Source: a virus
UHGV virus genome: UHGV-1579991
DNA length: 64,000 nucleotides
Direction: 5' to 3' (one strand)
The notes under the pieces were generated by a model. The model did not search any database. It was not told where the DNA came from and saw nothing but the letters and a program-made list of their open reading frames with translations. This document shows positions 3,803 through 62,524 of this stretch, piece by piece. The stretch's first letter is position 1, and each line of letters begins with the position of its first letter. The position numbers were made by a program, and so were the translations under genes.

Positions 3803-6800
3803 TTATCGAACAAGGAATGACGTACCAACAACCATATTTGGGATTGCCAAGCCATTGCCAGACTGGCTTACTGCAACTGTGCCACTTGTGTAACCTGACA
3901 ATGCTGCAGTAATTGTTGCCGACCTGCTGTTATCTGAACCCCAGTTATTTGCAGCGGACAATGTCGAACCACTGATTGTGAATGCGCCATTGTTCGATGA
4001 GTACGTTGGAGTAACCGCAGCATCTGATGTTGCAGACTGACCTGTCGTGTATGTTGTGACGGTTCGACCTGTCGTAGACAATGTTGCAGTGCCACCAGCA
4101 GCTCCAAAGCTTGTAACAGTTGAGCTAACAATCAGTGTCTTCGTAGTAGAAGTCACACTGTTGGCTTCCTGTGTAGCAGTGATTGCTTTTGAGCCAGTTT
4201 GACCATTCAACGCAACCGTCATATTGACTGTTGCAGTTCTTGCAGAACCAGCTGTTGTGCCACGATTTGCAGCAGTCAATGAACCTGTTGTACTACTGTT
4301 AAGTGTAAAGCCAGTAGTTGCAGCCATACTGTATGAAATCGTACCACCAGACGTAATAGTGGTTTTTGAACCACTTGTGTACGTTGCTGTCTGCGAATAT
4401 GCTGGCGTGCCTGTTGGAGTCTTTGTTGCACCTGCTGCAGCAAATGTTGCATATGATGTTGCTGTAGTAACTGTGACTGCACTGTATGATACACTGTTAG
4501 CTGCTTGATAAACATCAAGAGCTTTTGTAGCAGTCTTAGACCCTTCACCAGTAGCAGTTGCAGTCAAAGTGCCAATCTTTGTACGAGCTTTGACTGTAGT
4601 GCCAAGCGATGATGCGCTGACTTTTGTGCTATACGTAATGCTAACTGAGCCTGCCCTTGTGCTGCCAGACGTATATGTAATTGTCTGTGATGCACTGATG
4701 CCAGACATTGATGCGACTTCACCACCGCCAGCAGGAATATCTGATACAGAACCACCAGAGATTGTTACTGCGCCATATGTCGTAATTGCATTTGCAGCTT
4801 GGTACACATCTACTGCTTTTGTTCCAGATTTGCCATTGACTGTTACAGTAACAGTAGATGTTGTAATCTTTGTGCGAACTTTAGCAGTAGTGCCAAGCGA
4901 ACTACCAGACACTGCGCCAGTAGACGTTGTTACACCAGTGCCAGACCATGATTTGCTACCACCAGATGTAACTGTCTGTGTTGAGCCACTTGACCAAGTA
5001 ACTGACTGACTGAATGACACTGTAGGCGTAACTGAACCACCACCTGCAGGAATATCGCCATAAGTCATCGAAACTGTTGGCGTGCCATATGTAGCAGCAT
5101 TAGCATTTTGAGATGCAGTAGCAGTCTTTGTTCCACTGATAGTCTTTGTGCCTGCTGCGTTGTATGATGCAGTTGGCGTCCATGTAGCCTTTACAGTCTT
5201 TGTAACTGTTGGCGATGTAGTTGCGCCACTTGCAGTAGTGCCCTTTGATGATGCTGTTATAGCACCAGTAGATGCATTGAGTGCAGTGAACAATCCTGAT
5301 GCGCCTGGCCAGCTATATGATGTTGTAGTTGACAATGAACCATACGTAGATGCTGGCGCAGTAGTTGAAGTACTGCCACTACTAAAGTGGTATGTTACTG
5401 TGTTTGCACCATTTGACGGTGTAGATGTTCCGCCGCCTGCAGCAATTGCAGGATATGACATCGAACCAACTGCAATATTGAGTGCAGTCACATAGTTGCC
5501 TGCCTGATAAATCGTGGCAGACTTGCTGGCAGATTTGCCGTTCATTGTGACTTTAACAGTCAGTGTACCTGCAGTAGTCTGGTTAGATATTGTAGTACCC
5601 TTTGATTGCACAGTGACTGTCGATGTATACTCAATTGTTCCGCCGCTTGTCAGTGTTTCTGTCGTCTTTTCACCAGTAGCATATGTCGTAGTTTTGACCT
5701 GCGAGTAAGTTACTGTGCCAGATTTTACAGAACCGCCGCTTGCTGCAATGATAGTTGCAGACGGTGTCAAGTTAACTGTGATATCGCTATATGTAACTGT
5801 GCCGGCAGATTGAGCTGCTTGATAAACATCTGCAGCTTTTGATGCAGACTTACCATTGAGTGCTACTGTGACAGTCAATGTGCCAATCTTTGTTCGTGGC
5901 TTAACTGTTGTGCCAAGTGATGATGCAGTGATACCTGCTGCTGGACTGTATGAAATTGTTGCACCAGTAGTGATGTTCTGTGTTGAAGTTGATGTGTATG
6001 TTGCAGTCTGCGAATATGACACATTGCCGCTCTTAATTGTACCACCAGTTACAGGAATATCTGCTACAGTGAAGCTTGAAATTGTAACTGCGCCATATGA
6101 CACAGTGTTTGCAGCTTGCTTGACTGTGCAAGAACCAGTTTTTGTAACACCGCCCTCAGTGTATGAGCCGGAAATTGTAATGCTGCGTTCTGCGCCTACG
6201 ACTGTTGTGCGATTTGCTGCAGTTACTGTAGTAGTCGACAATGTAAAGCCAGTTGCTGAACCGCTAAGTGTTGCAGATACTGCAGCAGATGACGTTGAGC
6301 CTGATGCATATGTGTATGACGCTGTTGAAGTGATTGTAGTTGAACCGCCACCAGCTGCCAATGTTGCAGCGCCAGGTGTCAATGTCAAGCCATTCAGCGT
6401 CTTTGAGTTTGCAGTTTGTGTTGCAGTAGCAGTTTTTGTAGCAGATTTGCCATTGATTGCTACCGTAACTGTGACAGCATTTGAAGCATCAGTAGAGCCT
6501 ACATATGATGTGCCCATTGACGTTACAGTCAATGCGCCACTTGTTGTATTCAATGTCCAGCGTGACTTAGCAGTCATTGCATAAGACAATGTAGCGCCAC
6601 TTGTCAATGTGCCACCTGAGCCAGCTACACCATTCCAAGTCCAAACTTGTGAATATGAAACAGTTGGATTTGATGTACCACCAGCCGGAGCAATATTTGC
6701 ATATGAGAATGTTCCAATGACAGGCGTTTCATAGACTTTAACGCCTGCAGCTTGGTTGAACGTAATATCTTTTGATGCAGACTTGCCATTTGCAGTGACT

Positions 6801-8131
6801 GTCAAGGTAACAACAAATCCATTACGTGCAGCAGTAGAATTGTTGTTTGTCACTGTGACATTCAAGCCAGATAAGCTATAGCCTGTTACAGCAGTTTTAA
6901 CCACAGCAGTCCATGTGCCACCTGATGCATTACTATCAGTCGAGCCACTGCTATATGTCATTGACTGCGTAAATGTTGCAGATGCATTGACTGCAACAGT
7001 TTGACCTGCTACTGCAAGAGCAACTGGTGTTGTCTTTGTAATGACTGGCGTACCATACGTAATGCTGTTAGCAGCTTGTGTAATCGATACAGTAGCAGTT
7101 GCATTGCCATATGACGCTGTGCCACTAAATGACCGAGCATCACCGACAGTCTTGCCACGATTTGCAGATGTTACAGAATTTGCAGATATCGTAAATCCTG
7201 TTGCTGTGCCTGTAATTGTTGGCTTGACATTTGTTTCAGTAGATGTAACAACACCGTTCCATGTCACAGTGTACGTACCAGTGATGGTTGATGTTCCACC
7301 TGCTGCAGTATGACTTGTTGAATATGTGTTCAAAGCAAGCTTGTACACAACTGAACCAGCTGCTTGCGAGCATTTAACAGTCTTCGACAAACTATGACCA
7401 CTTACAGTCAATGTGGGCGTAACTGCTGCAGTTGATGCGTTGTTTGGCGTGTTAACTGTAATTGTTGCAGGACCTGTGCCAGATGCTTTTGAGACTGACC
7501 AACCTGCAGGTACACCCGAAATTGTCCATGCAAAGTCAGGATTACAAGAAATTGCGAATGTCTTCGATTCACCTTTTGCAACAAATGACAAAGTTTCTGG
7601 TGATACTGCCAATGTTGCACTTGCACCAGCTTGATTTACAGTGAATGTTGCAGATTTGCCACCAGGCGTTGACAATGTGAAAGTGAATGCCTTTGCAGCG
7701 ATTGCAGTATGTGCAGCAATCTGCACTCGTACAATGACTTCAAATTCTGCATTGACACCAGGGTCATTGTCAAAGTTTGTGTTGAGCGCATAATATTTGC
7801 CTGCAACAGTCACGCCAAGCACTGTGCCACTTGCAGTGCCGCCAGTACTGCCAAGCACAAGTTTTTGTGCATTTGTGACACATTTCAATGTTGCAATAGT
7901 GCCACCATTTGACGCAATGTTTGTAGATGCAACTGTAGCTCGTATAGTTTCACCAGGAGACTCTTGCAATACTGCACAGTTTTCAGTTACTACTGGTGAA
8001 CCTGTAGTTGTTTGTGCAGTAAAGCTGCCAGACCTGTTGTTTCGACCAGTATGCACAAATGCTTTGACAGACAACTGCGAGTTGCCTGTGCCAACATCAG
8101 GTGTAACTGTCAACCAAGTAGGCTTTGCCAT
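3803..8131 (-). CDS. large Thr/Ser/Gly-rich multi-repeat Ig-like protein (paralog 3 of 3), 1442 aa; likely virion surface, fibre or adhesin
   Basis: N-terminus MAKPTWLTVTPDVGTGNS...HTGR, followed by more than 10 repeats each ending in a x-Q-A-A-N type motif (VYQAAN, ITQAAN, VKQAAN, ATQTAN, TFNQAAG). Confidence 0.8.
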   Translation of the reverse strand: MAKPTWLTVTPDVGTGNSQLSVKAFVHTGRNNRSGSFTAQTTTGSPVVTENCAVLQESPGETIRATVASTNIASNGGTIATLKCVTNAQKLVLGSTGGTASGTVLGVTVAGKYYALNTNFDNDPGVNAEFEVIVRVQIAAHTAIAAKAFTFTLSTPGGKSATFTVNQAGASATLAVSPETLSFVAKGESKTFAISCNPDFAWTISGVPAGWSVSKASGTGPATITVNTPNNASTAAVTPTLTVSGHSLSKTVKCSQAAGSVVYKLALNTYSTSHTAAGGTSTITGTYTVTWNGVVTSTETNVKPTITGTATGFTISANSVTSANRGKTVGDARSFSGTASYGNATATVSITQAANSITYGTPVITKTTPVALAVAGQTVAVNASATFTQSMTYSSGSTDSNASGGTWTAVVKTAVTGYSLSGLNVTVTNNNSTAARNGFVVTLTVTANGKSASKDITFNQAAGVKVYETPVIGTFSYANIAPAGGTSNPTVSYSQVWTWNGVAGSGGTLTSGATLSYAMTAKSRWTLNTTSGALTVTSMGTSYVGSTDASNAVTVTVAINGKSATKTATATQTANSKTLNGLTLTPGAATLAAGGGSTTITSTASYTYASGSTSSAAVSATLSGSATGFTLSTTTVTAANRTTVVGAERSITISGSYTEGGVTKTGSCTVKQAANTVSYGAVTISSFTVADIPVTGGTIKSGNVSYSQTATYTSTSTQNITTGATISYSPAAGITASSLGTTVKPRTKIGTLTVTVALNGKSASKAADVYQAAQSAGTVTYSDITVNLTPSATIIAASGGSVKSGTVTYSQVKTTTYATGEKTTETLTSGGTIEYTSTVTVQSKGTTISNQTTAGTLTVKVTMNGKSASKSATIYQAGNYVTALNIAVGSMSYPAIAAGGGTSTPSNGANTVTYHFSSGSTSTTAPASTYGSLSTTTSYSWPGASGLFTALNASTGAITASSKGTTASGATTSPTVTKTVKATWTPTASYNAAGTKTISGTKTATASQNANAATYGTPTVSMTYGDIPAGGGSVTPTVSFSQSVTWSSGSTQTVTSGGSKSWSGTGVTTSTGAVSGSSLGTTAKVRTKITTSTVTVTVNGKSGTKAVDVYQAANAITTYGAVTISGGSVSDIPAGGGEVASMSGISASQTITYTSGSTRAGSVSITYSTKVSASSLGTTVKARTKIGTLTATATGEGSKTATKALDVYQAANSVSYSAVTVTTATSYATFAAAGATKTPTGTPAYSQTATYTSGSKTTITSGGTISYSMAATTGFTLNSSTTGSLTAANRGTTAGSARTATVNMTVALNGQTGSKAITATQEANSVTSTTKTLIVSSTVTSFGAAGGTATLSTTGRTVTTYTTGQSATSDAAVTPTYSSNNGAFTISGSTLSAANNWGSDNSRSATITAALSGYTSGTVAVSQSGNGLAIPNMVVGTSFLVR

Positions 8132-19208: not shown

Positions 19209-20267
19209 TTATGAACATTTTGTTAACAATGCATGACCACAATCATAAACTGCAACATAGCCAGTGTTAAGCATCTCTTGCTCATCTTGGCCGGCGTCTA
19301 CAATATGTTCTTTGCTGTTAAGTTTGACCCAGTGCTTGCAGATTGTTGACTTATCATCTGACAATTTAGGGTTAATGCAGAAGTCTGTTGAGCTTATTGT
19401 GTTGTCGAGATGCTGTTTGATGATATTGACAACTTGTTCAGGCGTCATCCAATCAAACACTGTTATGCAAGTGTAGCCATGCTTGAGGGCAAGCTGAGTT
19501 TTGTTGAAGTGATAGTCGAATGGGAGCGCATAGTTATGCTTAGACTTGCCAATTGCATATGCATAGCCATACGTAGAGTTGTGACTGATTGTTGGGCAAA
19601 TTTCAATCAGCAAATGCTTATAATGCAGGTCATATGACTGGCGTTCAATATTGACGTCATCACAGTCAAATGCAAGCCCAAGTTCTTGTAGCAGCAAAGT
19701 TTGCCATCGTTTGTTTGTAGCTGATATGACATTTTTGTGAGCATTGCGACATTTTTGATGCATACAAAAGAATGGGACACCATATTTTTGCTGCATCAAT
19801 TTAGTGTCAATGCCTGCTGCATTGCCATAACGTTCAAGCTTCGTTGCTCTAATTTTGTCAGCATCACCCCAAATGTTGCCATATCGTTTGCGCTTTGTGT
19901 CTTGAGACTTCTTAATGTTGCCACTGCGGTTGCCATAAATAAGTTCCTTTGATTGACACGCATGTTCAGCAGCATCTGGCCCATATATGTGACCGTATTT
20001 TTGAAGCTTAATTTCATTGATACGTTCTACTGGGCCATTTGGATGACCATAGCGTTCTTGTTTGATGCGTTTTGTGTGCTCAATTGTTGACTTTAATGCA
20101 AGCTTTGACGTAACGCCAAATTTGCGCAAACAGCCTATTCTAATATTGAAACTACGTTTAATATGCGATGCTTCTATTTTTGTAACAGCCAATTGCAATG
20201 CAGCATCACGTTCAGTTTCAAGCATGCAAATTTGTTCATCAATTGTCATAGCATCAAACCATTTCAT
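19209..20267 (-). CDS. repeat-rich (RYG-x-G) putative free-standing homing endonuclease or DNA-binding protein, paralog 1
   Basis: Tandem roughly 18-aa (R/K)YG repeats and a conserved C-terminal domain (LIEICPTISHNSTYGYAYAIGKSK) shared with 35445-36719 and 48935-50126. Confidence 0.7.
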   Translation of the reverse strand: MKWFDAMTIDEQICMLETERDAALQLAVTKIEASHIKRSFNIRIGCLRKFGVTSKLALKSTIEHTKRIKQERYGHPNGPVERINEIKLQKYGHIYGPDAAEHACQSKELIYGNRSGNIKKSQDTKRKRYGNIWGDADKIRATKLERYGNAAGIDTKLMQQKYGVPFFCMHQKCRNAHKNVISATNKRWQTLLLQELGLAFDCDDVNIERQSYDLHYKHLLIEICPTISHNSTYGYAYAIGKSKHNYALPFDYHFNKTQLALKHGYTCITVFDWMTPEQVVNIIKQHLDNTISSTDFCINPKLSDDKSTICKHWVKLNSKEHIVDAGQDEQEMLNTGYVAVYDCGHALLTKCS

Positions 20268-35444: not shown

Positions 35445-36719
35445 TTATATATTTGACAGCTGTTTGCGTTGCAAAATTGCATGACCGCAGTCATATACTG
35501 CAACATAACCTGCATCAATCATCTCTTGCTCATTTTGTCCGCAGTCTTCAATATGTTCTTTTGTCTTTAAATGACACCAGTGTTTGCGAATTGTTGACTT
35601 GTCATCTGACAGTTGCGGATTAAGTGCGAAGTTAGTTGAGTCTACTGGTTCACCTGCAAGATGCTTTCGAATGACATCAATGACTTCATTGTCATCCATC
35701 CATTCGAATATTGTAATGCAAGTGTAGCCAAGCTTAAGAGCAAGCTGAGTTTTGTCGAAGTGATAGAATTTGCTAACATGCTTATTGTGTGTAGTACGGC
35801 CAATTAAATATGCAAAACCATATGTTGAATTGTGTGACCAAGTTGGATTGATTTCAATCAATAATTTGCAATGTTCATTACTGTAATTGAGGTCATATGA
35901 CCATCGCTCAAGATTGACATCATCAAGCCCACAATCAATCCCAAGTTCTTGCAGCAATTTGTCATGCCACCAATGGTTTGCTCGTGATTTTACATGACCT
36001 TGAGCATCACGACATTTAGCAGTCATACAAAAATATGGGACACCATAGCGTTGCATGTTAGTTGACGCAATTTTTTGCAAATCGCCTGCAGCAGACCCAT
36101 ATTTTTGTCGTTTTGTTGCAACTGCTACTGCAATATTGCCAAATTTGTTGCCATATCGTTTCTGTTTAGTTTCAAGTGCTTTGTCAATATTTATGATGCC
36201 TCTTGTACCATGTTCTTTTTCACGTTTAGCTAAAATTGTTTGCATGTCGCCAAGTTTGTTGCCATATCGTTGCAATTTAGTTTCATGCATTTTTGCAATA
36301 TTTGTCCAACTATCACCATAATGTTGTCTATGTGTTGCAGCGCAACGTGCTTTGTCACCAAACATGTGTCCAAACTTTGCTAAACGACGCTCAACAAATT
36401 TTTGCATGTCACCCATGCCATTACCATATCGTTTCTGCTTAGTTGCAACAGCCTTTTGCATATTGACACCTCGATAGCCATAACGCATTTCTATTGTTGT
36501 AGTAATTTTATCACTGATGACTTTTGATTGCTGAGCATACTCAAAACCATATTTACGCAAGCAGCCAATTCGCTTATTATATTTCAAACGAATTTTACCA
36601 TGTGATGTCTTCTTTGGGCCATACCATTCATATGGCGTTTCTGCAATCAATTTATCACGTTCAGCTTCAAGTTCTTTTATTCGAGCTTCAAGAGCTTCAC
36701 CTATTAATTGTGTTGCCAT
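35445..36719 (-). CDS. repeat-rich (RYG-x-G) putative homing endonuclease or DNA-binding protein, paralog 2, 424 aa
   Basis: Same repeat architecture and C-terminal domain (LIEINPTWSHNSTYGFAYLIGR) as the gene at 19209-20267. Confidence 0.7.
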   Translation of the reverse strand: MATQLIGEALEARIKELEAERDKLIAETPYEWYGPKKTSHGKIRLKYNKRIGCLRKYGFEYAQQSKVISDKITTTIEMRYGYRGVNMQKAVATKQKRYGNGMGDMQKFVERRLAKFGHMFGDKARCAATHRQHYGDSWTNIAKMHETKLQRYGNKLGDMQTILAKREKEHGTRGIINIDKALETKQKRYGNKFGNIAVAVATKRQKYGSAAGDLQKIASTNMQRYGVPYFCMTAKCRDAQGHVKSRANHWWHDKLLQELGIDCGLDDVNLERWSYDLNYSNEHCKLLIEINPTWSHNSTYGFAYLIGRTTHNKHVSKFYHFDKTQLALKLGYTCITIFEWMDDNEVIDVIRKHLAGEPVDSTNFALNPQLSDDKSTIRKHWCHLKTKEHIEDCGQNEQEMIDAGYVAVYDCGHAILQRKQLSNI

Positions 36720-41500: not shown

Positions 41501-41869
41501 TTATTTGATTGCGCGTTCAAACATTCTGCAGCACCAGTCTTTATATGCTGGATTGCCCTTAACATCTGCTCGGAATGCACAGTTGATAAGAGTCTTCTCT
41601 TCATCAACAAAGCATGCATAACGACAGTTTGCACAGCAACGAGCATCTTCTTGCTTAGTACAGAATGCTGCACATGTCATGTCATCTTCTGTGTTGCGAA
41701 TTGTTTTTGTTGGCGTGTATTCATAAGTGCACTGACAAATGCCATTATGTTCACGATGAAAGAAGCAATTTTTGCAAACATGCGCAACTTCTTCAACTGG
41801 TGCTGATGCTGCATATGTTTGTTCTTGCTCTACTGCAGACTGTGCAGCAGCTTTAGTCTTTTTTGCCAT
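41501..41869 (-). CDS. Cys-rich small protein, about 122 aa; start trimmed
   Basis: Track ORF started inside the tandem repeat (TTG); first ATG is at 41869 (MAKKTKAAAQ...); 14 Cys residues. Confidence 0.55.
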   Translation of the reverse strand: MAKKTKAAAQSAVEQEQTYAASAPVEEVAHVCKNCFFHREHNGICQCTYEYTPTKTIRNTEDDMTCAAFCTKQEDARCCANCRYACFVDEEKTLINCAFRADVKGNPAYKDWCCRMFERAIK

Positions 41870-41894
41870 TGTATCAAATGTTTGTATTTGTAAG

Positions 41895-41970
41895 TTGTTT
41901 TGATGCAAAATGCAAAACAATATAAAATTGTTTTGATGCAAAATGCAAAACAATATAAAATTGTTTTGAT
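41895..41970. repeat. tandem direct repeat, 33-bp unit x about 2.3 (ttgttttgatgcaaaatgcaaaacaatataaaa)
   Basis: Read directly from the sequence; intergenic, upstream of the Cys-rich gene; each unit carries two TGCAAAA half-sites. Confidence 0.8.
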
Positions 41971-41972
41971 AT

Positions 41973-48890: not shown

Positions 48891-48934
48891 TTGTTGTTTG
48901 TTGATATATGTAAAAATATTGTACAACAATACTG

Positions 48935-50126
48935 TCATTTTTGCACAGCATGGCCGCAATCGTACACAGGCACATAACCAGCGTCAAGCATTTGTTGTTC
49001 ATCTACTTCTGCAGTATGCGCAGCATACAGTCGCTTCTTGTAATTCCACCAATGTTTTCTAATAGTCAATTTGTCATTGCATATGACAGGATTTTTTGAC
49101 AAGTCTGTGCTATCTACACGTTCATTGCATAAATGCTGTCGTATGATTTCTACAACGTCATCAGGGTTATCCCAATCCCATATTGTAATGCATATGTAGC
49201 CTGCTGTAAGTGCTGCTTGAGTTTTTCTAAAATGTCTATCATTAGGAATTGGCAAATTGCGTTTAGATTTGCCAATTGCATATGCAAAGCCAAATGCAGC
49301 ATTATGTGAAAACGATGGGTTGATTTCTATTAGTAGATGCTTATAATGCAAATCATAAGAAAATCTGCCAATATTGACATCATCAAATGTGCAATCAATG
49401 TTAAGTCGTTGCAGCAAAAAATCATGCCACCAACGATTAACCGTTGTAATGGTGCGCCCATTAGCATGCCGACAACGCTCAGTCATAACAAACCAAGGTA
49501 CACCATAGCGTTCAAGATTTGTTTGCATGCGTTTTGCAGTGCCACCATATTCATCACCGTATCGTAATCTGCGTGTATGAACTGCTTTTAATGGGTTGCC
49601 AGCAGAATTGCCATATCGTAGCATCTTTGTTTGCTGCGCTTTAGCAGTAATTACACCATGGTCAGGATAGTGTTCGCGTATTGTTTGCTGCACTTTAGTA
49701 GCATTCCATGTGCGATAGCCGTACTTGTGTAATTTTGTTTGCTGGGCTTTTTGCATGTTGTTATAATATGGGTCGCCATAGCGTTCTTCTTTAATTTTGC
49801 ACATTAACTGTTGGTCGCCAAATGCATTGCCATATTTTGCAAGTTTTGTTGCCTTAAATTTAGTCATGTCGCCAAGCCCATTGCCATATCTTTCTCGTTT
49901 TGTTGCGACACCTTTGTTTGTAAATTCTTTTTAATTGCGCAGTGTTTTCAACACCATATTTACGCAAATTGCTTATACGACTGTTATATGTACGTTTGCA
50001 AATTGTGTATTGTGAGTAGCGTTTATGCTGAGGTCGTTCTTTAGACGCAGTTTGCAATATCACATCTCTTTCCTCTTCAAGTTCTTTTATGCGAGCTTCA
50101 AGAGCTTCTCCAGTTAATGGTTCCAT
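48935..50126 (-). pseudogene. repeat-rich (RYG-x-G) homing-endonuclease-like gene, paralog 3, split by a frameshift
   Basis: Two overlapping ORFs (49860-50126 and 48935-49867); homology to paralog 2 continues across a T5 run at about 49928-49932 only if one base is removed. Confidence 0.6.
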
Positions 50127-50155
50127 ATGTCATTTGTGTAAATGTCAACAAAAAT

Positions 50156-50192
50156 AGCGCAGCAGTGTAATCTCACGACTAACTGCTGCGCT
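50156..50192 (-). terminator. terminator-like hairpin (10-bp stem agcgcagcag/ctgctgcgct, 17-nt loop) downstream of the helicase gene
   Basis: T-run follows on the minus strand (atttttgttg). Confidence 0.5.
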
Positions 50193-50362
50193 TGAACATT
50201 GTGCTATGAAAGAATGACCATCCCAAACACCCAAACAAGCACAAATGTTCCGACACAAGAAAACGGAAGAACCCGAAAGAAGCGAGGAGCACGCTTTGTT
50301 TGTGACTGGATTATGTTATCAATGTATGTACTTATAGGGTGTTTGTTCGTGGGTTCTTGTCA

Positions 50363-53300
50363 TCAAAAGCCTCGATTCATCAGTTCATCAGCAAGTCGTT
50401 CAAGTTCAGTAGCAGCTTTTTGTCGCTTGGCTTCTCTTTCTGCTTCAACATCTGCTTTGCTTACTGGCGATTCCAAGTCTTTTGCAGGTGCATCTTCAAT
50501 AACAGTCAAATTGTTGTCATCAAACTTGTTGTCAATGTCAACTCGTTTGAATGATATGATGCCTGATGACACCTGAGCTTCTACTTGTTGTTTGTCAAAT
50601 ACAAGACTACTAATCGTTGATTGCAGTTTTGTAGATGCCAGCAATCGTTCTGTGTTATCTGCAAAAATGTCATCAGTAAACAATACATGCAGCATTTGAG
50701 CAATCGAATCACGACTTCTGCTGTAGCCACTGTCAAATGCAGGCAACTGCTTAATTGCATAGATGTCGCCATCATGTACAGTAATTGCATTGAACATGCG
50801 TCTTGCAATTGATGCCACCGAATCAAGTACATCTGGTGATTGCGGCGTGTAGCCTCGTGAATCAAAGTATATGAGTGCAGAGTTCTTAACAATTTGATCG
50901 ACTACTTCTGATGCAATTGAGACTGCATCTTTGCTGTTATTGAAGACATCATTTAGCATATATGACACAATCTTGATGTTCGACTCATGCATTGTGCCAC
51001 TTGAGCCAGCATCAAATATTGACACTGCGTCTTTGATTGATTTGAGTCTTGCAAGTCGATACATGTCTTTGTTATCAATGACATACATATCGATAGTCTT
51101 CATAATTGTGTCGAACAAGTAATGATGCGATAGTGTTCGCAATGCATGTCGCCAATCATCAAATACTCGTCTGTCTTCTACAAGATATGCAAGCTTGCCA
51201 TTTTTCTTGACAAGTTCAAATCTGTCTGATTCTTGAATTTGCTCTGCCGGCAAATTCATGATGACTTCGAATGTAGCCTGATTGACAAATGATGCAAACA
51301 TTTTGCCAATCTTGCTGTTCTTTTCTTGACGGTACTCTGCTCGAGCTTCTTTTGCAGCATTGAGAACTTGAGCAATCATCATGTCATCTGCAACAACATC
51401 TTGCACGACTTTGCATTCATAGCCATACGATGACAATGTGTTCTGAATGATGACAAGCTGAGTAGCCCATTGTCGCCATTTCTGCTCAAACATATTGAGC
51501 TTATACGCAGTCAAGTGAATCTTGATTTCACCTGTGTACGGGTCACGATAAAAGTACGGTGCATTGAATGCCCATTCAAAGAAATCAAAGAGACTTCTTG
51601 AGTCATTGCGCTTTGTCTGCATTTGCAAAATGTCCCAGAATGTCAACTTTTCAACATTTGTTAATGTCAAGTCAAGCTCATCATATGCAGTGATGTTTCG
51701 TGGGTCACCATTCGCTTTTGTCATACTGAAATACACATATGACTGAATGGATATTTTGCGAAGTCGTGAGTTGAACTGCTCAATTTCTTGACCAGTGAAT
51801 GCCTCGTCATAAATGACATCGAATTCGTAGCTGTCATTGATATCAATGCCAACTGACAAGTAATTTGTGCAGAATAGCAGTTCAATATCACCGATTGTGC
51901 CAGATTCATTGATTGATTGAACAAAGTCATGCATTGCATTGTCACGCTTGTAGTACTTGACTTTTGGATTTCTGCCAAGCATCATTCGAACTGCACCAAC
52001 AATTGCATGAGTAAATGCATCGCCTTTGTTTGTTGGGAACAGAATTCGTTTGCCTGCTTTAATTGCTGTTGAGATATGTGATGCAAGTTTTGTAATCTTG
52101 TCGCCGTCATGTTTGCAGCAGACAAATCTGACACCTTTGTTGTAATTAAGTGGCTTATCGCAGAATACGACAGTATCAAAATGACAGAACATGTGTTCAG
52201 CTACAGGTGTGCCTGTCATCAAAATGACTTTTGTCTGTAACTTTGTTAAGTTGTCAATCACATTTGCAGGTACAACATCACGATATGCAGACATTGTCAA
52301 CAAGTGCGACTCGTCGACGACGACGTAGTCATATAAAATTGACACTTCCTCTGGGTCAGCTAATGTAAATTTATCGAATGTCAAAGCTACATTGACATGC
52401 TTAGACAATTCAAGACCACGCTGACCAAATGAGCAATACATGCCAAGGTCTGACATCTCAATCTTTGATTGCAAGATTGATGTGTATGGTTCAATCAGCA
52501 TGACTCGTTTTCCATCACGAGTAAGCTGTTTGATGAATTCTGTCTTGCCTGAACCTGGTCGTGCAATCAAATAGTTGATGCCAGTTACAAATGCTTCTTC
52601 AAGTTCATGCTTGTATGTCGACAAATACTCATTTTCTGCAAGTTTGAAGACATGCGTATGTCGAAGTTCAAAGTCTTTTTGCTGTGCAACTTTCGACATA
52701 ATGTATTGACTGATTGCGTCTTCTGTATTGTGTTCAGCAATCAGTTCATTGACAGTTACAGACGACTTGTTAGCAAACTTGAATTTGAAGCCATGTTTTT
52801 CACGAAGTTCTTTGACAGATGACCATACACATGGACAAGTGCCTGCTGCATTACGTTCAACTGCAGACCTGAATGAGTTTGCCCAGCTGTTATGCTCTGC
52901 ATTGAACTTTGGATTGCCCGAACACATTTGCAAGAACATTTGCAACACATGTTGATATTGTGCAGAAGTCGTTGATTGCAAATCATATAAAAATGCTAAA
53001 GTATATGCAAGTCTGTATCTACCAGTGTTATCGTAGTTTTGTGGAGTGATTGTGAGCATTGTGCCCTCTTCAATCATTGTGATGTCGTCACGTTGAGTAA
53101 AGACTTGCTCGCCGTCAGTCATTGCAGTCATATGAGACTTCGGTGCATAATCAAAACGACCACGAAGTCTATCAAACATTGTCTTCAGTTTGTCGATGCA
53201 GAATTTTGCATCAACTGAAGCATAAATGCTAACATCAAACTCTGGTTGCTCAATGAATTGCGCGTTTTGATTGATGATGACATCTTTATCTCGTGCAACA

Positions 53301-53962
53301 AATAGTGGCTGACTAATTTTGCAAACAGACGCATCAACTACTCGAGATTCAGACATTTGACCTGACTTTTCAAGTCGTCTTGACAATGTATTGTTGACAG
53401 GATGCACTTCTCGAGCCATGTCATGATTGCCCTCTGATTCAAGCTGGTCACTCAGCAACACAAGGCATTTCCAAATGACATACAGTTTTGCCTCATATGC
53501 ATCAAGATATACTTTCTTTGCTGCAGAAGCATTTTCAGATGACACAAATACAGCATCTTCAGTTTGAATTGACAGAGGCTTTGAGATTGTATAGACGTGC
53601 AAGCCTGAACCAGAAGTCGACTTAAGCACAGCAACACACCACGGATATTTGCAAAGCATTGCAGCCAAACGTGGTTTAATGACTTCTACAAGTTCTTTTG
53701 AGTGAAAGTCCAAATCGACTGGCTGTAAGCCTGACCAAGTCAAGTAGTCATGAACTTGTTGTTTTGGTCGAGCAAACATTGTCGATTGCGACACAAAGGG
53801 ACGATGCGCTTTATCTACTGTGTCAAGTGACTCATCATTTGCAACTTTCATGATGAGGTCATACAATGAAATTTGTTGCTTATTGACAGTGTCTTCTGTT
53901 TTACGAACACTGTCGCCCATCATGAACTTTATGCCACTGAGCAAATCTTTGACGTTTGACAT
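50363..53962 (-). CDS. P-loop NTPase helicase (DExH-type), possibly primase-helicase, about 1199 aa; start trimmed
   Basis: Walker A ARPGSGKTEF and Walker B VVVDESHLL; start moved to ATG 53962 because the track N-terminus overlaps the upstream gene. Confidence 0.6.
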   Translation of the reverse strand: MSNVKDLLSGIKFMMGDSVRKTEDTVNKQQISLYDLIMKVANDESLDTVDKAHRPFVSQSTMFARPKQQVHDYLTWSGLQPVDLDFHSKELVEVIKPRLAAMLCKYPWCVAVLKSTSGSGLHVYTISKPLSIQTEDAVFVSSENASAAKKVYLDAYEAKLYVIWKCLVLLSDQLESEGNHDMAREVHPVNNTLSRRLEKSGQMSESRVVDASVCKISQPLFVARDKDVIINQNAQFIEQPEFDVSIYASVDAKFCIDKLKTMFDRLRGRFDYAPKSHMTAMTDGEQVFTQRDDITMIEEGTMLTITPQNYDNTGRYRLAYTLAFLYDLQSTTSAQYQHVLQMFLQMCSGNPKFNAEHNSWANSFRSAVERNAAGTCPCVWSSVKELREKHGFKFKFANKSSVTVNELIAEHNTEDAISQYIMSKVAQQKDFELRHTHVFKLAENEYLSTYKHELEEAFVTGINYLIARPGSGKTEFIKQLTRDGKRVMLIEPYTSILQSKIEMSDLGMYCSFGQRGLELSKHVNVALTFDKFTLADPEEVSILYDYVVVDESHLLTMSAYRDVVPANVIDNLTKLQTKVILMTGTPVAEHMFCHFDTVVFCDKPLNYNKGVRFVCCKHDGDKITKLASHISTAIKAGKRILFPTNKGDAFTHAIVGAVRMMLGRNPKVKYYKRDNAMHDFVQSINESGTIGDIELLFCTNYLSVGIDINDSYEFDVIYDEAFTGQEIEQFNSRLRKISIQSYVYFSMTKANGDPRNITAYDELDLTLTNVEKLTFWDILQMQTKRNDSRSLFDFFEWAFNAPYFYRDPYTGEIKIHLTAYKLNMFEQKWRQWATQLVIIQNTLSSYGYECKVVQDVVADDMMIAQVLNAAKEARAEYRQEKNSKIGKMFASFVNQATFEVIMNLPAEQIQESDRFELVKKNGKLAYLVEDRRVFDDWRHALRTLSHHYLFDTIMKTIDMYVIDNKDMYRLARLKSIKDAVSIFDAGSSGTMHESNIKIVSYMLNDVFNNSKDAVSIASEVVDQIVKNSALIYFDSRGYTPQSPDVLDSVASIARRMFNAITVHDGDIYAIKQLPAFDSGYSRSRDSIAQMLHVLFTDDIFADNTERLLASTKLQSTISSLVFDKQQVEAQVSSGIISFKRVDIDNKFDDNNLTVIEDAPAKDLESPVSKADVEAEREAKRQKAATELERLADELMNRGF

Positions 53963-56273: not shown

Positions 56274-56310
56274 ATTGTCGAAATCTTGTTTGTGTTATAT
56301 GTACACAAAA

Positions 56311-56336
56311 CTGCACCAGCAAAATTGCTGGTGCAG
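56311..56336 (-). terminator. rho-independent terminator-like hairpin (ctgcaccagc/aaaatt/gctggtgcag)
   Basis: 10-bp stem; T-run follows on the minus strand; sits between stop 56340 and next start 56273. Confidence 0.55.
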
Positions 56337-56339
56337 TCG

Positions 56340-56597
56340 TTAATTGTTGAGATACTGCTGAAGCTCGGCTTCTGTTGCAAGTCTACATTGCTTAATATTG
56401 AACACTGTCATAATATGACAACTCTTGCATTTATGCCAAATTTCAGCAACAGCAGTTTGTGTGTTCTTTGGCAATGAGTGTCTGTACTTGACAATGTCTG
56501 TAGTACCGCAGCATTTACATGTGCCAAGCACTACATACAATTTTGAGTTAGTCGCGCTCAATTGTGACATGTCTAACTTCTGCTTCTTCATAGCCAT
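56340..56597 (-). CDS. small zinc-ribbon-like protein, 85 aa
   Basis: CKCCG ... CKSCH motifs. Confidence 0.5.
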   Translation of the reverse strand: MAMKKQKLDMSQLSATNSKLYVVLGTCKCCGTTDIVKYRHSLPKNTQTAVAEIWHKCKSCHIMTVFNIKQCRLATEAELQQYLNN

Positions 56598-59174: not shown

Positions 59175-59418
59175 TTTGTGTATGTTCTTGATTTGCTTGT
59201 TCTGCTAAGTTGTTTATGAATGCTTTGAGCAATTCAATGATTGTTGTTAGTAACTGAATTTGAAACAATACAATGCTAAACATGACAATTGCTACAATGC
59301 AAATTGAAATGAAGAGCATATTGATGTCAAATTTGTTTGCTATCAATGTTTGCAGCCAAGTTATGACTGCAAACATTGAAATCAGTATGAATACTTTGTG
59401 CTGTGATAACGATTTCAT
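59152..59418 (-). CDS. small membrane protein with two predicted TM helices, 88 aa (holin-like topology, speculative)
   Basis: Hydrophobic segments VFILISMFAVITWL and FISICIVAIVMFSIVLF. Confidence 0.45.
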   Translation of the reverse strand: MKSLSQHKVFILISMFAVITWLQTLIANKFDINMLFISICIVAIVMFSIVLFQIQLLTTIIELLKAFINNLAEQANQEHTQNDSDTAN

Positions 59419-60134: not shown

Positions 60135-60235
60135 ATGTAGAGATTTTTGTAGTTTGTATCAATTGCATTCTATATCAATTGCATCTTGTATCAAATACAT
60201 TATATTGATATATGATAATTGTACTACAAAAATCC

Positions 60236-60339
60236 CAAATTTGCACACTTTGATAATCAAAAGTGCAAACAAAATTCAAAGTTATATTGTACATCATAAA
60301 GTGCAAATTTGCACTTTATGATGCTGCAAAATGTTTGCA
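60236..60339. promoter_or_regulatory. cluster of TTTGCAC/GTGCAAA half-sites including a 20-bp perfect palindrome aaagtgcaaatttgcacttt (about 60298-60317)
   Basis: Read directly from the sequence; AT-rich intergenic region that also carries two atcaattgcat direct repeats (about 60158-60184). Confidence 0.4.
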
Positions 60340-60349
60340 TAAAAAAATA

Positions 60350-60373
60350 AGCAGCTTAGATTGCTAAGCTGCT
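60350..60373 (-). terminator. terminator-like hairpin (agcagcttag/attg/ctaagctgct) downstream of the membrane protein gene
   Basis: 10-bp stem; followed on the minus strand by a T7 run. Confidence 0.5.
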
Positions 60374-60397
60374 GTCATTGTATGTATGCAGTCACTG

Positions 60398-60883: not shown

Positions 60884-61258
60884 GCAAATATATTTTTGTT
60901 TGTATATGTACATAAAAGAGCAAGTTCTCCACATTGAGAACTTGCTCAGCTGACCTGTTACCAGGTGAAAGCGTGGTGCAGCACCTTGTGCTGCAATGGC
61001 TATGCTGCCATCGCCATAACGGGCTGAGCATTGCCCAGCATCATTACACGACCAGCTGCATTAAGCGTACGCTTTGCTTTGTTGAAAAATTTGCCAGTTA
61101 TCTGGTATCTGCACATCTATTCAAGCGACCTACTATGCAATCAAATGCCTGTCGAGCCCAATGTTTGAGCAGTTGTTTGTCAGATGCTCAGCTGACTGCA
61201 GTCTTTCTGAGTGTATCAAGTTCAGCGATTCTGCATCTTTGCTAAATGGCAATGGTTC

Positions 61259-61300
61259 AGGTGGACTCGCCGAGAATCGAACTCGGGTCTTACATAGCGC
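61259..61300 (-). other. tRNA 3'-half-like element (T-arm plus acceptor 3' strand) with no 5' partner
   Basis: CCGAG/TTCGATT/CTCGG T-arm followed by CGAGTCC-A-CC; no complementary 5' acceptor strand was found upstream. Confidence 0.2.
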
Positions 61301-61342
61301 ATCCTTGACTTGGTCCTGTAAACAGGGTTGTCAACATGCATT

Positions 61343-61413
61343 GCAATACGACAGGACTCGAACCTGCGACCTCGGATTGGACGTCCGCGCTCTTACCGCT
61401 GAGCTACGTATTC
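61343..61413 (-). tRNA. tRNA-like gene with canonical D- and T-arms but non-canonical anticodon arm (possible pseudo-tRNA)
   Basis: GCTC/AGCGGTAA/GAGC D-arm and GCAGG/TTCGAGT/CCTGT T-arm; acceptor stem 6 of 7 pairs; the region GTCCAAT could not be folded into a standard anticodon stem-loop by hand. Confidence 0.35.
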
Positions 61414-61506
61414 TTATCAATTGACTGCACTGCAATGCAATCAATCGTGCCAATGATATTTGACACGCATAATTGCAGTTATGCGTAACAATTCAAATGT
61501 CATTTG

Positions 61507-61579
61507 AGCCAACTGCAGGAATCGAACCTGTAACCTGCTGAGTACAAATCAGCTGCTCTACCAATTGAGCTAAGTTGGC
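61507..61579 (-). tRNA. tRNA-Thr (anticodon TGT)
   Basis: Hand-folded cloverleaf: 7-bp acceptor stem GCCAACT/AGTTGGC, D-arm GCTC..GAGC, anticodon stem GCTGA/TCAGC with loop TTTGTAC, T-loop TTCGATT; CCA not encoded. Confidence 0.8.
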
Positions 61580-61584
61580 ATAAA

Positions 61585-61658
61585 GTCGTTGGGCCATTGC
61601 AACCCAAACCTATCATCTTTGCCTAACCAAAGATGCAAGCGCTCTCTTACACCACGAC
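61585..61658 (-). other. tRNA-like element with irregular arms (possible degenerate tRNA)
   Basis: Acceptor-like pairing GTCGTGG/CCAACGAC (6 of 7) and a long hairpin CATCTTTG/GTTAGG/CAAAGATG; T-loop atypical. Confidence 0.2.
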
Positions 61659-61661
61659 TTG

Positions 61662-61733
61662 TAGCCGAACTTGGAGTCGAACCAAGCTTTCGAGAATGAA
61701 AATCTCGCGTCCTAACCGATAGACGAAACGGCC
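61662..61733 (-). tRNA. tRNA-Glu (anticodon TTC), with two mismatches in the acceptor stem
   Basis: D-stem GTCT/GGAC, anticodon stem CGAGA/TCTCG with loop TTTTCAT, T-arm CTTGG/TTCGACT/CCAAG; acceptor 5 of 7 pairs. Confidence 0.55.
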
Positions 61734-61916
61734 AAGAGCAGTTCAAGTCTGCAGCATTGAACTGCGGAAACAATGCCTGTACGGGCAACCAATTGTGCAG
61801 ATACAGCGACATTGCAAAATCACACCGAACCAAGTTTGTGGCTCTTCTGTCTCATAAAAACAAGTAATCATTACACTTGGCACCAATGATTTTGATGTAA
61901 AAATCGGTGTGTTACG

Positions 61917-62001
61917 CGGAGAGTAAGGGATTCGAACCCCTGGTACGTTGCCGTACAGTGGTTTTCAAGACCACCGCCATCGACCGCTCGGCCAACTCTC
62001 C
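61917..62001 (-). tRNA. tRNA-Ser (anticodon TGA), type II with long variable arm
   Basis: Acceptor GGAGAGT/ACTCTCC, D-arm GCCGAGCGGTCGATGGC, anticodon stem GTGGT/ACCAC with loop CTTGAAA, long variable arm, T-loop TTCGAAT. Confidence 0.8.
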
Positions 62002-62194
62002 ATAAAACATTGCATAAGCATTCTTATCTCTTGATGAGGCCAAGTAGCTAATTTGGCAAGTTTGTTATATCTATCGTGACTGTTGCAGTTTGTTGTCACT
62101 CAATACACAAAACTTTCGAACATTCATTGACAACACTGCAATATCGCTTTTTAAGCTCAGCCATCAATGTATTTATGCAATGTATAACAATTCG

Positions 62195-62276
62195 TAGCCA
62201 AACCGGGACTTGAACCCAGACTCCTAATGGAACAACATTTTGAGTGTTGCGTGTCTACCAATTCCACCATTTGGCC
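62195..62276 (-). tRNA. tRNA-Leu (anticodon CAA), type II
   Basis: Acceptor GGCCAAA/TTTGGCT, anticodon stem CAACA/TGTTG with loop CTCAAAA, 13-nt variable arm, T-loop TTCAAGT. Confidence 0.75.
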
Positions 62277-62373
62277 ATTTGCAAATGCAAGCTGTTTCAC
62301 AACTGTTTGCATTTGCATTTGCATTGTTTAACACACTAAAATATGATTCATCTAATCAAAAACCAGAGAATTG

Positions 62374-62446
62374 TCGAGAATGTGCGATTTGAACGCCAAT
62401 TATACGTCCCAAACGTATCGTGTTACCGGATTACACTACATTCTCG
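62374..62446 (-). tRNA. tRNA-Pro (anticodon TGG), with irregular D-arm and T-stem
   Basis: Acceptor CGAGAAT/ATTCTCG perfect; anticodon stem ATACG/CGTAT with loop TTTGGGA; T-loop TTCAAAT. Confidence 0.6.
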
Positions 62447-62453
62447 TTAATTG

Positions 62454-62524
62454 TTGAACTGTCTGGACTCGAACCAGAAATATATCATCCAAAGTGATAT
62501 GTGTTACCATTACACCACAGCTCA
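62454..62524 (-). tRNA. tRNA-Gln (anticodon TTG)
   Basis: Acceptor TGAGCTG/CAGTTCA (one G-T pair), D-stem GTGT/ACAC, anticodon stem TATCA/TGATA with loop CTTTGGA, T-arm TCTGG/TTCGAGT/CCAGA. Confidence 0.8.

What the first reader, a model, noticed from the sequence alone, without database searches (positions are those of the whole stretch)
50193..50362. 170-nt non-coding G/T-rich stretch between the helicase stop and its terminator
No plausible minus-strand ORF fits here, and the transcribed strand is G/T-rich (gggttcttccgttttcttgtgtcggaacatttgtgcttgtttgggtgtttggg) before the terminator hairpin at 50156-50192. It could be a long 3' UTR or a small RNA.
Basis: seen in the sequence. Interest (0 to 1): 0.2.

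Follow-up and report, generated by a model that had tools for sequence, protein, structure and literature searches.

The report
Conserved structured 3' UTR after helicase gene
The 170 non-coding bases after a phage helicase-like gene are real, unusually conserved, and fold into one long hairpin ahead of a genuine transcription terminator, so this is most likely a modest new example of a structured RNA tail that controls the end or stability of a phage message.

Summary
The window is part of a ~175-180 kb uncultivated phage related to Bacteroidota phages; genes here run on the minus strand. The stretch 50193-50362 is non-coding, between the stop of a 1199-aa helicase-like gene and a terminator hairpin (50156-50192). 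It is not uniformly G/T-rich. The first ~75 nt are G-poor (G+T 29%) and the next ~75 nt are G/T-rich (75%; the quoted 53 nt reach 81%, the window maximum). The two halves pair into a ~30-bp imperfect stem spanning the whole 3' UTR. Four near-identical genomes show no substitution here, although the helicase gene differs by 3-3.5%. A relative with an 85% identical clamp loader (L012) has a homologous 262-nt gap. Its 5' arm sequence differs, but it forms the same stop-codon-to-terminator hairpin, and each lineage's arms fit only each other. L012's terminator stem carries two compensatory double changes. No ORF is conserved, there is no Rfam match, and L012 carries the element without the adjacent homing-endonuclease-like gene. 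Best reading: a lineage-specific structured 3' UTR plus an intrinsic terminator, probably a double-stranded-RNA processing or stability element. A 3'UTR-derived small RNA is not excluded. Transcript evidence is lacking. Interest is modest.

The parts
50363..53962 (-). Helicase-like gene (1199 aa from the ATG at 53962; stop TGA at 50363-50365, followed by a second TGA)
   Evidence: ORF. Walker A and DESH motifs. Homologs annotated as helicase in Tenacibaculum phages, and 41% identity to Chryseobacterium phage MA9V proteins. Pfam DEAD hit only at E 0.024.
50193..50362 (-). Non-coding 3' UTR that folds into one long imperfect hairpin (the finding)
   Evidence: MFE -44.5 kcal/mol, z -2.14 on the sense strand against z -0.45 on the antisense strand. 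No substitution across 4 genomes. Homolog in L012 at 6689-6843 with the same architecture.
50327..50363 (-). 5' arm of the basal stem (G-poor, A/C-rich); it starts inside the stop codon
   Evidence: Pair list from the MFE structure: 30 basal pairs, 2 of them G-U. Composition.
50244..50326 (-). Apical, variable domain with two small hairpins; holds the only polymorphism (a 2-nt indel at 50313-50314) and a 13-nt segment absent in L012
   Evidence: The indel lies in the unpaired apical stretch.
50206..50243 (-). 3' arm of the basal stem (G/T-rich; contains TGTTTGGG twice and the block GGGATGGTC at 50224-50216, which is conserved in L012)
50222..50274 (-).
   Evidence: G+T 81%, the maximum of the window.
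50156..50192 (-). Intrinsic-terminator hairpin (11-bp perfect stem plus an inner 5-bp stem)
   Evidence: Two pairs changed on both sides and kept in L012 (CG to UA, GC to AU) on a purely sequence-based alignment.
50146..50156 (-). U-rich tail TATTTTTGTTG. TATTTTTG also matches the Bacteroidota -7 promoter box TAnnTTTG, 30 nt before the next ATG
   Evidence: A promoter role is inference only.
48935..50126 (-). Neighbouring homing-endonuclease-like gene, split here into 88-aa and 310-aa ORFs. It is not part of the element
   Evidence: An intact 396-aa version, P0012, is 95% identical. Paralogs lie at 35445-36719 and 19209-20267. The fold matches the I-Bth0305I catalytic domain. The gene is absent in L012, which still has the UTR element.

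Best explanation
The stretch is the structured 3' untranslated region of the mRNA that ends with the helicase-like gene.

Shown: from the stop codon to about 13 nt before the terminator, the RNA can form one extended, imperfect hairpin. Its basal stem has about 30 bp in three coaxial segments and carries a variable apical domain. It is immediately followed by a Rho-independent terminator. Both the long hairpin and the terminator are maintained by selection. The element belongs to the helicase transcription unit, not to the mobile endonuclease gene downstream.

Inferred mechanism: a stem of about three helical turns is the kind of substrate that double-strand-specific RNases (RNase III type) cut, and the kind of structure that blocks 3' exonucleases. 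The element most likely sets the 3' end and the lifetime of the replication-gene transcript. It would act as a processing or stability element, or as a 'retroregulator'. Together with the terminator it would insulate that transcript from the downstream endonuclease and clamp-loader unit.

My confidence that this is a functional sense-strand RNA structure is about 0.6-0.65. My confidence in the specific RNase III or stability mechanism is about 0.3.
For: (1) Non-coding. Only 37-aa GTG/TTG ORFs exist. In L012 the conserved block GGGATGGTC is read in a different frame, no start codon gives an equivalent ORF, and cross-species frame scores are alike on both strands (61, 59, 57).

(2) Unusual placement. 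Four of the other five strong terminators on this strand begin 0-25 nt after a stop codon; this one begins 170 nt after.

(3) Conservation. There is no substitution in 170 nt among the window, L001, L003 and L018. The helicase CDS has 196 variable sites (13.8% of third positions), and no 170-nt window of the CDS has fewer than 1 variable site (mean 9.5). The only change is a 2-nt indel in the unpaired apical loop.

(4) Independent folds. The window gives dG -44.5, z -2.14. L012 gives dG -36.1, z -2.39. Both are a single stop-codon-to-terminator hairpin. The antisense strands fold worse (z -0.45 and -1.17). L012 uses 10 G-U pairs out of 50.

(5) Co-evolved arms. Native arm-arm duplexes are -33.8 and -29.6 kcal/mol (z -3.9 each, 0 of 1000 shuffles as good). 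Swapped arms give -15.7 (z +0.8) and -20.8 (z -1.95).

(6) Pair mapping. Mapping pairs through the alignable 3' arm is collinear, with 6 double compensatory and 4 one-sided changes among 22 shared pairs.

(7) Covariance model. A model built only from the window lineage finds L012 as the best non-self hit (17.9 bits, E 0.02 in 171 kb, 0.003 in 29 kb). On that alignment 14 of 48 pairs are changed on both sides and kept, and 96% of cells are paired, against 38-48% when partners are slid.

(8) Terminator covariation on an unbiased alignment.

(9) Independence from the endonuclease gene. L012 has the element without that gene, and the two other paralogs in the window lack the element.
Against: Only two diverged lineages are available, so covariation rests essentially on one comparison.

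The MAFFT plus RNAalifold consensus does not recover the long hairpin (covariation term -1.37). It proposes a local hairpin in the 3' half instead.

Structure adds only 4.7 bits over a sequence-only model (17.9 against 13.2).

The CM-fitted and pair-anchored alignments lean towards the structure, and I defined the arms for the duplex test from the MFE folds.

Whole-UTR z-scores are modest (-2.1 and -2.4).

In the window lineage the stem is almost all Watson-Crick (2 G-U in 30 pairs), so a DNA-level inverted repeat is not excluded there.

There is no transcript, cleavage or termination data, and the RNase III step is pure inference. Relatives at about 60% identity lack the element, so it is not essential to this phage group.
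Confidence: 0.6

Rival explanations
1. A 3'UTR-derived small RNA. The hairpin, or its G/U-rich 3' arm, is released together with the terminator by processing of the helicase mRNA and acts in trans on phage or host messages. The invariant GGGAUGGUC block would be a possible seed.
For: The element shares a terminator with the mRNA. It shows strong conservation, and one 9-nt block is identical in both lineages inside an otherwise ~65% identical arm. The structure is sense-strand specific.
Against: No TAnnTTTG promoter box lies inside the stretch. There is no Rfam family. In both folds GGGAUGGUC is largely base-paired or lies in an internal loop, not in an exposed single strand. No target search was possible because the host is unknown.
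Confidence: 0.2
2. A neutral spacer or scar. The helicase/clamp-loader junction is a hotspot where accessory genes come and go, and the 170 nt would be left-over, function-less DNA. Its inverted repeat would be incidental.
For: The junction content differs in every relative: a 53-58 nt gap, a 162-aa gene, three small genes, a 170-aa gene, or endonuclease alleles. Relatives at about 60% identity have no such element.
Against: No substitution in 170 nt, where 9.5 are expected at the CDS rate and about 23 at the third-position rate. The arms co-vary between lineages. There is no detectable similarity to the genes occupying the site in relatives; DNA and protein scores equal those of shuffles.
Confidence: 0.1
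3. A DNA-level element: an imperfect inverted repeat bound by a protein or extruded as a hairpin. It could be a replication origin or primer-forming site next to the replication genes, or a recombination site.
For: The location is between helicase-like and clamp-loader genes. The motif TGTTTG occurs twice on each strand. In the window lineage the stem is nearly all Watson-Crick. The G-rich non-template strand would favour RNA-DNA hybrids; this is inference from ColE1 RNA II and T4 origin biology, recalled from memory.
Against: There is no GC-skew inflection at 50.2 kb. L012 needs 10 G-U pairs, and its antisense strand folds poorly (-24.3 against -36.1). The repeated TGTTTG units are not conserved in L012. 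Other intergenic regions of this phage that look like protein-binding sites are perfect palindromes, unlike this one.
Confidence: 0.07
4. A small hydrophobic protein gene: the 37-aa GTG ORF at 50292-50179, or the 37-aa TTG ORF at 50258-50145.
For: The ORFs exist, and an A-rich leader precedes the GTG.
Against: G/T-rich DNA yields hydrophobic codons in any frame. L012 has no equivalent ORF with a start codon. Conserved nucleotides are read in different frames because of compensating +1/-1 indels. Forward and reverse frame scores are alike. Every minus-strand gene checked for its upstream region starts with ATG except one TTG start.
Confidence: 0.03
5. Part of the mobile homing-endonuclease cassette: its promoter, regulatory leader or target-site remnant.
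For: It is directly upstream of a hypervariable endonuclease-like gene. TATTTTTG lies 30 nt before its ATG.
Against: L012 has the homologous UTR and terminator but no endonuclease gene. In the window lineage the gene is inserted about 20-30 nt downstream of the terminator. The two paralogs at 36719 and 20267 have no such upstream region.
Confidence: 0.03

Closest known systems
Intrinsic (Rho-independent) transcription terminators
   Same: A GC-rich perfect stem followed by a U-rich tract, on the coding strand downstream of a stop codon, with the stem kept by compensatory changes.
   Different: This applies only to 50146-50192, not to the 170 nt of the finding. The terminator sits 170 nt after the stop, whereas four of the other five strong terminators on this strand sit 0-25 nt after one.
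RNase III processing sites of phage T7 early mRNA (R0.3-R1.3) and similar intergenic processing hairpins (established knowledge, from memory)
   Same: Imperfect hairpins with internal loops between phage genes on a polycistronic sense transcript. After cleavage they leave a stabilising 3' stem. The predicted coaxial stem of about 30 bp exceeds the roughly 20 bp needed.
   Different: T7 sites are about 50-60 nt; this one is about 160 nt with a branched apical domain. There is no sequence similarity. It lies before a terminator, not between co-transcribed genes. Cleavage is untested, and the host and its RNase III specificity are unknown.
Lambda sib / tI retroregulator of int (established knowledge, from memory)
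   Same: A structured element downstream of the regulated gene, adjacent to a terminator, that controls mRNA decay from the 3' end.
   Different: In lambda the RNase III substrate forms only on read-through of tI and overlaps the terminator. Here the long hairpin is upstream of the terminator and separate from it.
3'UTR-derived bacterial small RNAs (for example CpxQ, SroC, DapZ; established knowledge, from memory)
   Same: They share the mRNA's terminator, are conserved beyond neutral expectation, and lie directly after a stop codon.
   Different: Those are enterobacterial and Hfq-dependent, usually with an exposed seed. No processing site, promoter or target is identifiable here, and there is no Rfam match.

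Membership tests
Intrinsic terminator (50146-50192) | Stable GC-rich stem-loop | tested here: met
   11-bp perfect stem with 7 GC pairs; dG -24.3; z -5.0.
Intrinsic terminator (50146-50192) | U-rich tract immediately 3' of the stem | tested here: met
   UAUUUUUGUUG. L012 has CUUCUUUUAUG.
Intrinsic terminator (50146-50192) | Stem maintained by compensatory substitutions in relatives | tested here: met
   Two pairs changed on both sides and kept on a MAFFT alignment.
Intrinsic terminator (50146-50192) | Transcripts end there | not testable with these tools
   Needs Term-seq or 3' RACE.
Any Rfam family | Covariance-model score at or above the gathering threshold | tested here: not met
   The whole-window scan at gathering threshold finds only 7 tRNAs. 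The permissive scan of 50100-50420 gives only chance hits (E 2.4 and 5.4).
RNase III processing / stability hairpin | At least ~20 bp of coaxial, imperfect double-stranded RNA on the sense transcript | tested here: met
   Prediction only. The basal stem has 30 bp in segments of 4+5, 3 and 9+9 bp. The same architecture appears in L012.
RNase III processing / stability hairpin | Structure conserved by covariation | tested here: inconclusive
   Supported by the arm-swap test, pair mapping and CM-fitted counts. It is not recovered by the sequence-based RNAalifold run, and only two lineages are available.
RNase III processing / stability hairpin | Cleavage by RNase III, and an effect on upstream mRNA half-life | not testable with these tools
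   Needs an in-vitro cleavage assay or an rnc-mutant host.
3'UTR-derived small RNA | Discrete short transcript sharing the mRNA terminator | not testable with these tools
   No transcript data.
3'UTR-derived small RNA | Own promoter or defined processing site | tested here: not met
   No TAnnTTTG box and no sigma-70-like promoter inside 50193-50362. A processing site cannot be assessed.
Protein-coding small gene | ORF and reading frame conserved in relatives | tested here: not met
Homing-endonuclease cassette component | Co-occurs with the endonuclease gene and is absent where the gene is absent | tested here: not met
   L012 has the element without the gene. Two paralogs have the gene without the element.
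Degraded remnant of the gene found at this site in relatives | Residual DNA or protein similarity above chance | tested here: not met
   Scores equal those of shuffles. tblastx finds nothing significant.

The most novel reading that the evidence does not exclude
The G-rich 3' arm of the transcript, held in a hairpin until needed, forms a persistent RNA-DNA hybrid with the C/A-rich template. This would provide the primer or R-loop for a replication origin placed between the helicase-like and clamp-loader genes. That is ColE1 RNA II / T4 oriF logic in a Bacteroidota-type large phage. The terminator would define the primer's 3' end.
Probability: 0.06. Interest if true: 0.6.

Novelty: new member of a known kind. 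Interest (0 to 1): 0.3.

Why it matters
If the reading is right, this is a previously undescribed structured RNA motif in the replication module of an uncultivated large phage lineage whose relatives infect Bacteroidota. Regulatory RNAs and mRNA-processing signals are almost unknown in such phages. It would give one concrete, testable case of 3'-end control of a replication-gene transcript.

Its reach is limited. It occurs in only two closely related lineages, it belongs to a well-known class of elements (intergenic hairpins and terminators), and no new principle is implied. For the genome scan, the practical point is that the odd base composition is explained by a hairpin with one G-poor arm and one G/U-rich arm.

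Tried and rejected
- Near and distant BLAST of the region against 50,697 phage records found nothing meaningful.
- Self-BLAST found no other copy in the window.
- Exact and degenerate DNA patterns in IMG/VR found only the two near-identical contigs.
- The metagenome scan with a helicase C-terminal alignment returned only 4 loci, none with the element. The protein search with the helicase C-terminus returned one fragment.
- I tested whether the 170 nt is a remnant of the 162-aa gene (L002) or the 170-aa gene (MA9V) found at this site in relatives. Scores equal those of shuffles, and those two genes are not even related to each other.
- I tested for an origin by GC skew and found no inflection.
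- I tested small ORFs; they are not conserved.
- I looked for a Bacteroidota -7 box inside the stretch and found none.
- Sequence-based RNAalifold did not recover the long hairpin. I report this as evidence against.
- The first CM alignment (A8) included two likely chance hits in the window (59219-59384 and 3003-3059), so I discarded its counts in favour of A9.
- A scripted fold survey of all gaps timed out. I replaced it with three single folds.
- The endonuclease homologs P0004 and P0007, on large contigs, turned out to sit at a different locus.

Full report
**Context.** The window is a gene-dense stretch, almost all on the minus strand, of a large uncultivated phage. The closest sequences are IMG/VR contigs of 175 kb (L001 and L003, 98-99% protein identity in the helicase C-terminal query) and an ENA contig (L018). 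More distant relatives are L002/L008 (64%), and Chryseobacterium phages MA9V-1/2 (41%) and Tenacibaculum phages (24-29%) in the large ORF. The ORF ending at 50363 encodes a 1199-aa protein with Walker A and DESH motifs. Its only family evidence is a sub-threshold DEAD hit, plus homologs annotated as helicase. I therefore call it helicase-like.

**The observation.** The coordinates are right. The stop TGA lies at 50363-50365. The terminator-like hairpin lies at 50156-50192 (perfect 11-bp stem, dG -24.3, z -5.0 with flanks) and is followed by TATTTTTGTTG. The next ATG is at 50126.
- The 236-nt gap is among the largest in the window.
- Of the other five strong terminator-like hairpins on this strand, four begin 0-25 nt after a stop codon, so 170 nt of extra sequence is an outlier.
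- The quoted 53 nt (50274-50222) have G+T 81%, the maximum of the whole window.
- The 170 nt as a whole are 51% G+T. The first 75 nt are G-poor and A/C-rich (G+T 29%, lowest 0.16% of windows) and the next 75 nt are 75% G+T.

There are two compositionally opposite halves.

**Anatomy.** The two halves are complementary. The sense-strand RNA from the stop codon to about 13 nt before the terminator folds into one long imperfect hairpin.
- The basal stem has 30 pairs in coaxial segments. The 5' arm is 50363-50327 and the 3' arm is 50243-50206.
- The apical domain has two small hairpins.
- The fold gives dG -44.5 and z -2.14, against z -0.45 for the antisense strand.
- With the terminator included, z is -4.9.
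- No Rfam family matches, at gathering or permissive thresholds. No copy exists elsewhere in the window or in the phage record collection.

**Not coding.** The only ORFs are 37-aa GTG/TTG frames and short antisense frames. The 2-nt indel in L001 and L003 changes the antisense frames. In the diverged homolog L012 the conserved block GGGATGGTC is read in a different frame, because compensating +1/-1 indels lie within 39 nt. No start codon gives an equivalent ORF. Frame-by-frame similarity scores are the same on both strands (61, 59, 57), which is what nucleotide-level conservation produces and protein-level conservation does not.

**Not part of the neighbouring mobile gene.** The gene downstream (48935-50126) is split here into 88-aa and 310-aa ORFs. 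An intact 396-aa version (P0012) is 95% identical.
- It has KYG repeats (DUF7487, just below threshold). Its C-terminal domain model best matches the catalytic domain of homing endonuclease I-Bth0305I (3r3p: probability 1.0, target TM 0.69, E 0.02).
- Two paralogs lie in the window at 35445-36719 and 19209-20267.
- Four near-identical genomes carry four different alleles at this junction: 396 aa frameshifted, 455, 343 and 374 aa.
- Neither paralog has a comparable upstream region.
- The relative L012, found through its 85% identical clamp loader, has no endonuclease gene at all. It still has a 262-nt non-coding gap between helicase and clamp loader that is homologous to the window's UTR plus terminator.

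Comparison of the flanks places the endonuclease insertion about 20-30 nt downstream of the terminator.

More distant relatives have other contents at this junction: a 53-58 nt gap (L016, L017), a 162-aa gene (L002/L008), three small genes (L014/L015), or a 170-aa gene (MA9V). The junction is thus a turnover hotspot, and the UTR element is specific to the window-plus-L012 subclade. The 170 nt show no residual similarity to those genes.

**Evidence for selection.**
- *Close clade.* Among the window, L001, L003 and L018 the helicase CDS differs by 3.1-3.5% per pair from the window, with 196 variable sites in total and 13.8% of third positions variable. The 170 nt have no substitution. No 170-nt window of the CDS has fewer than one variable site (mean 9.5). 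The sole change is a 2-nt indel in the unpaired apical stretch.
- *Between lineages.* The 3' half is about 65% identical and the 5' arm is barely alignable. L012 nevertheless folds into the same stop-codon-to-terminator hairpin (dG -36.1, z -2.39; antisense -24.3, z -1.17; 10 G-U pairs out of 50).
- *Pair mapping.* Mapping pairs through the alignable 3' arm gives a collinear correspondence of 22 pairs. Six are changed on both sides and four on one side.
- *Arm swap.* Arm-arm duplex energies are -33.8 and -29.6 kcal/mol for native combinations (z -3.9 each; 0 of 1000 dinucleotide shuffles as good). Swapped arms give only -15.7 (z +0.8) and -20.8 (z -1.95).
- *Covariance model.* A model built from the window lineage alone finds L012 as the best non-self hit (17.9 bits). 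On that alignment 14 of 48 pairs are changed on both sides yet kept, and 96% of cells pair, against 38-48% when partners are slid.
- *Terminator.* The terminator stem shows two double compensatory changes on a purely sequence-based alignment.

**Limits.**
- There are only two lineages.
- The sequence-based MAFFT plus RNAalifold run does not recover the long hairpin and proposes a local hairpin in the 3' half instead.
- Structure adds only 4.7 bits over a sequence-only model.
- The structure-anchored alignments are biased towards the structure, and I chose the arms from the MFE folds.
- In the window lineage the stem is nearly all Watson-Crick, so strand specificity rests mainly on L012.
- There is no transcript evidence.

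**Interpretation.** The most economical reading is a functional, structured 3' UTR of the helicase-operon mRNA followed by a genuine intrinsic terminator. A stem of about 30 bp with internal loops is the class of structure used by phages as RNase III processing sites and 3' stabilisers (T7 R-sites; lambda sib as a 3' retroregulator; established knowledge). I propose that function with about 0.3 probability.

Rival readings are as follows.
- A processed 3'UTR-derived small RNA is the main rival (about 0.2). No host-type TAnnTTTG box lies inside the stretch, so any such RNA would arise by processing.
- A neutral scar is made unlikely by the conservation and co-variation.
- A DNA-level origin or binding site is not supported by GC skew or by the G-U dependence in L012, but it is not excluded.
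- A small protein and a role as part of the endonuclease cassette were tested and not supported.

**Verdict.** The finding is a real and non-random feature. It is a new, narrowly distributed member of a known kind of element, and interest is modest (0.3).

Noticed in passing
window 48935-50126, 35445-36719, 19209-20267 (all minus strand); L001 4573-5940; L003 4573-5604; L018 4001-5125: A multi-copy, hypervariable gene family. It has an N-terminal coiled coil, KYG repeats (DUF7487, near threshold) and a C-terminal domain whose model best matches the homing endonuclease I-Bth0305I catalytic domain. Four near-identical genomes carry four different alleles at the helicase/clamp-loader junction. 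The window copy is frameshifted (88 + 310 aa against an intact 396-aa P0012).
   Followed up: partly
helicase/clamp-loader junction: window 48891-50362; L012 6689-6950; L016 3924-3976; L017 1585-1642; L014 4463-6000; L002 4351-4976: This junction is a gene-turnover hotspot across relatives. Its content ranges from nothing (53-58 nt), through a non-coding structured element, one unrelated 162-170-aa gene and three small genes, to a homing-endonuclease-like gene.
   Followed up: partly
window 60135-60397 (minus strand): This intergenic region holds a terminator hairpin and several long perfect palindromes, for example CATCATAAAGTGCAAATTTGCACTTTATGATG. The fold z-score is -8.5. It looks like an operator/promoter control region.
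   Followed up: no
window 41807-41972 (minus strand): Two tandem ~33-nt units (CAAAACAATTTTATATTGTTTTGCATTTTGCAT), each containing a palindrome. This is a possible pair of repeated protein-binding sites.
   Followed up: no
window 60909-61351 and 61343-62524: ARAGORN calls a tmRNA-like gene (marked tmRNA* in its output) next to an array of 7 tRNA genes. The Rfam gathering scan reports the tRNAs but no tmRNA, so the tmRNA call is unsupported.
   Followed up: no
window 53994 and 50156 (minus strand): TAnnTTTG, the Bacteroidota -7 promoter box, lies 32 nt upstream of the helicase ATG and 30 nt upstream of the endonuclease ATG. The second copy overlaps the terminator's U tract and is absent in the endonuclease-free relative L012. 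The motif is otherwise not enriched upstream of genes (4 of 30 occurrences).
   Followed up: partly
window 56274-56547 (minus strand): Another large, structured gap (z -3.9). It contains a 13-bp hairpin (CTGCACCAGCAA/TTGCTGGTGCAG) followed by TTTTGTGTACATATAACACAAAC, which resembles the sequence after the 50156 terminator (TTTTTGTTGACATTTACACAAAT). It may also hold an 85-aa ORF (56340-56597).
   Followed up: no
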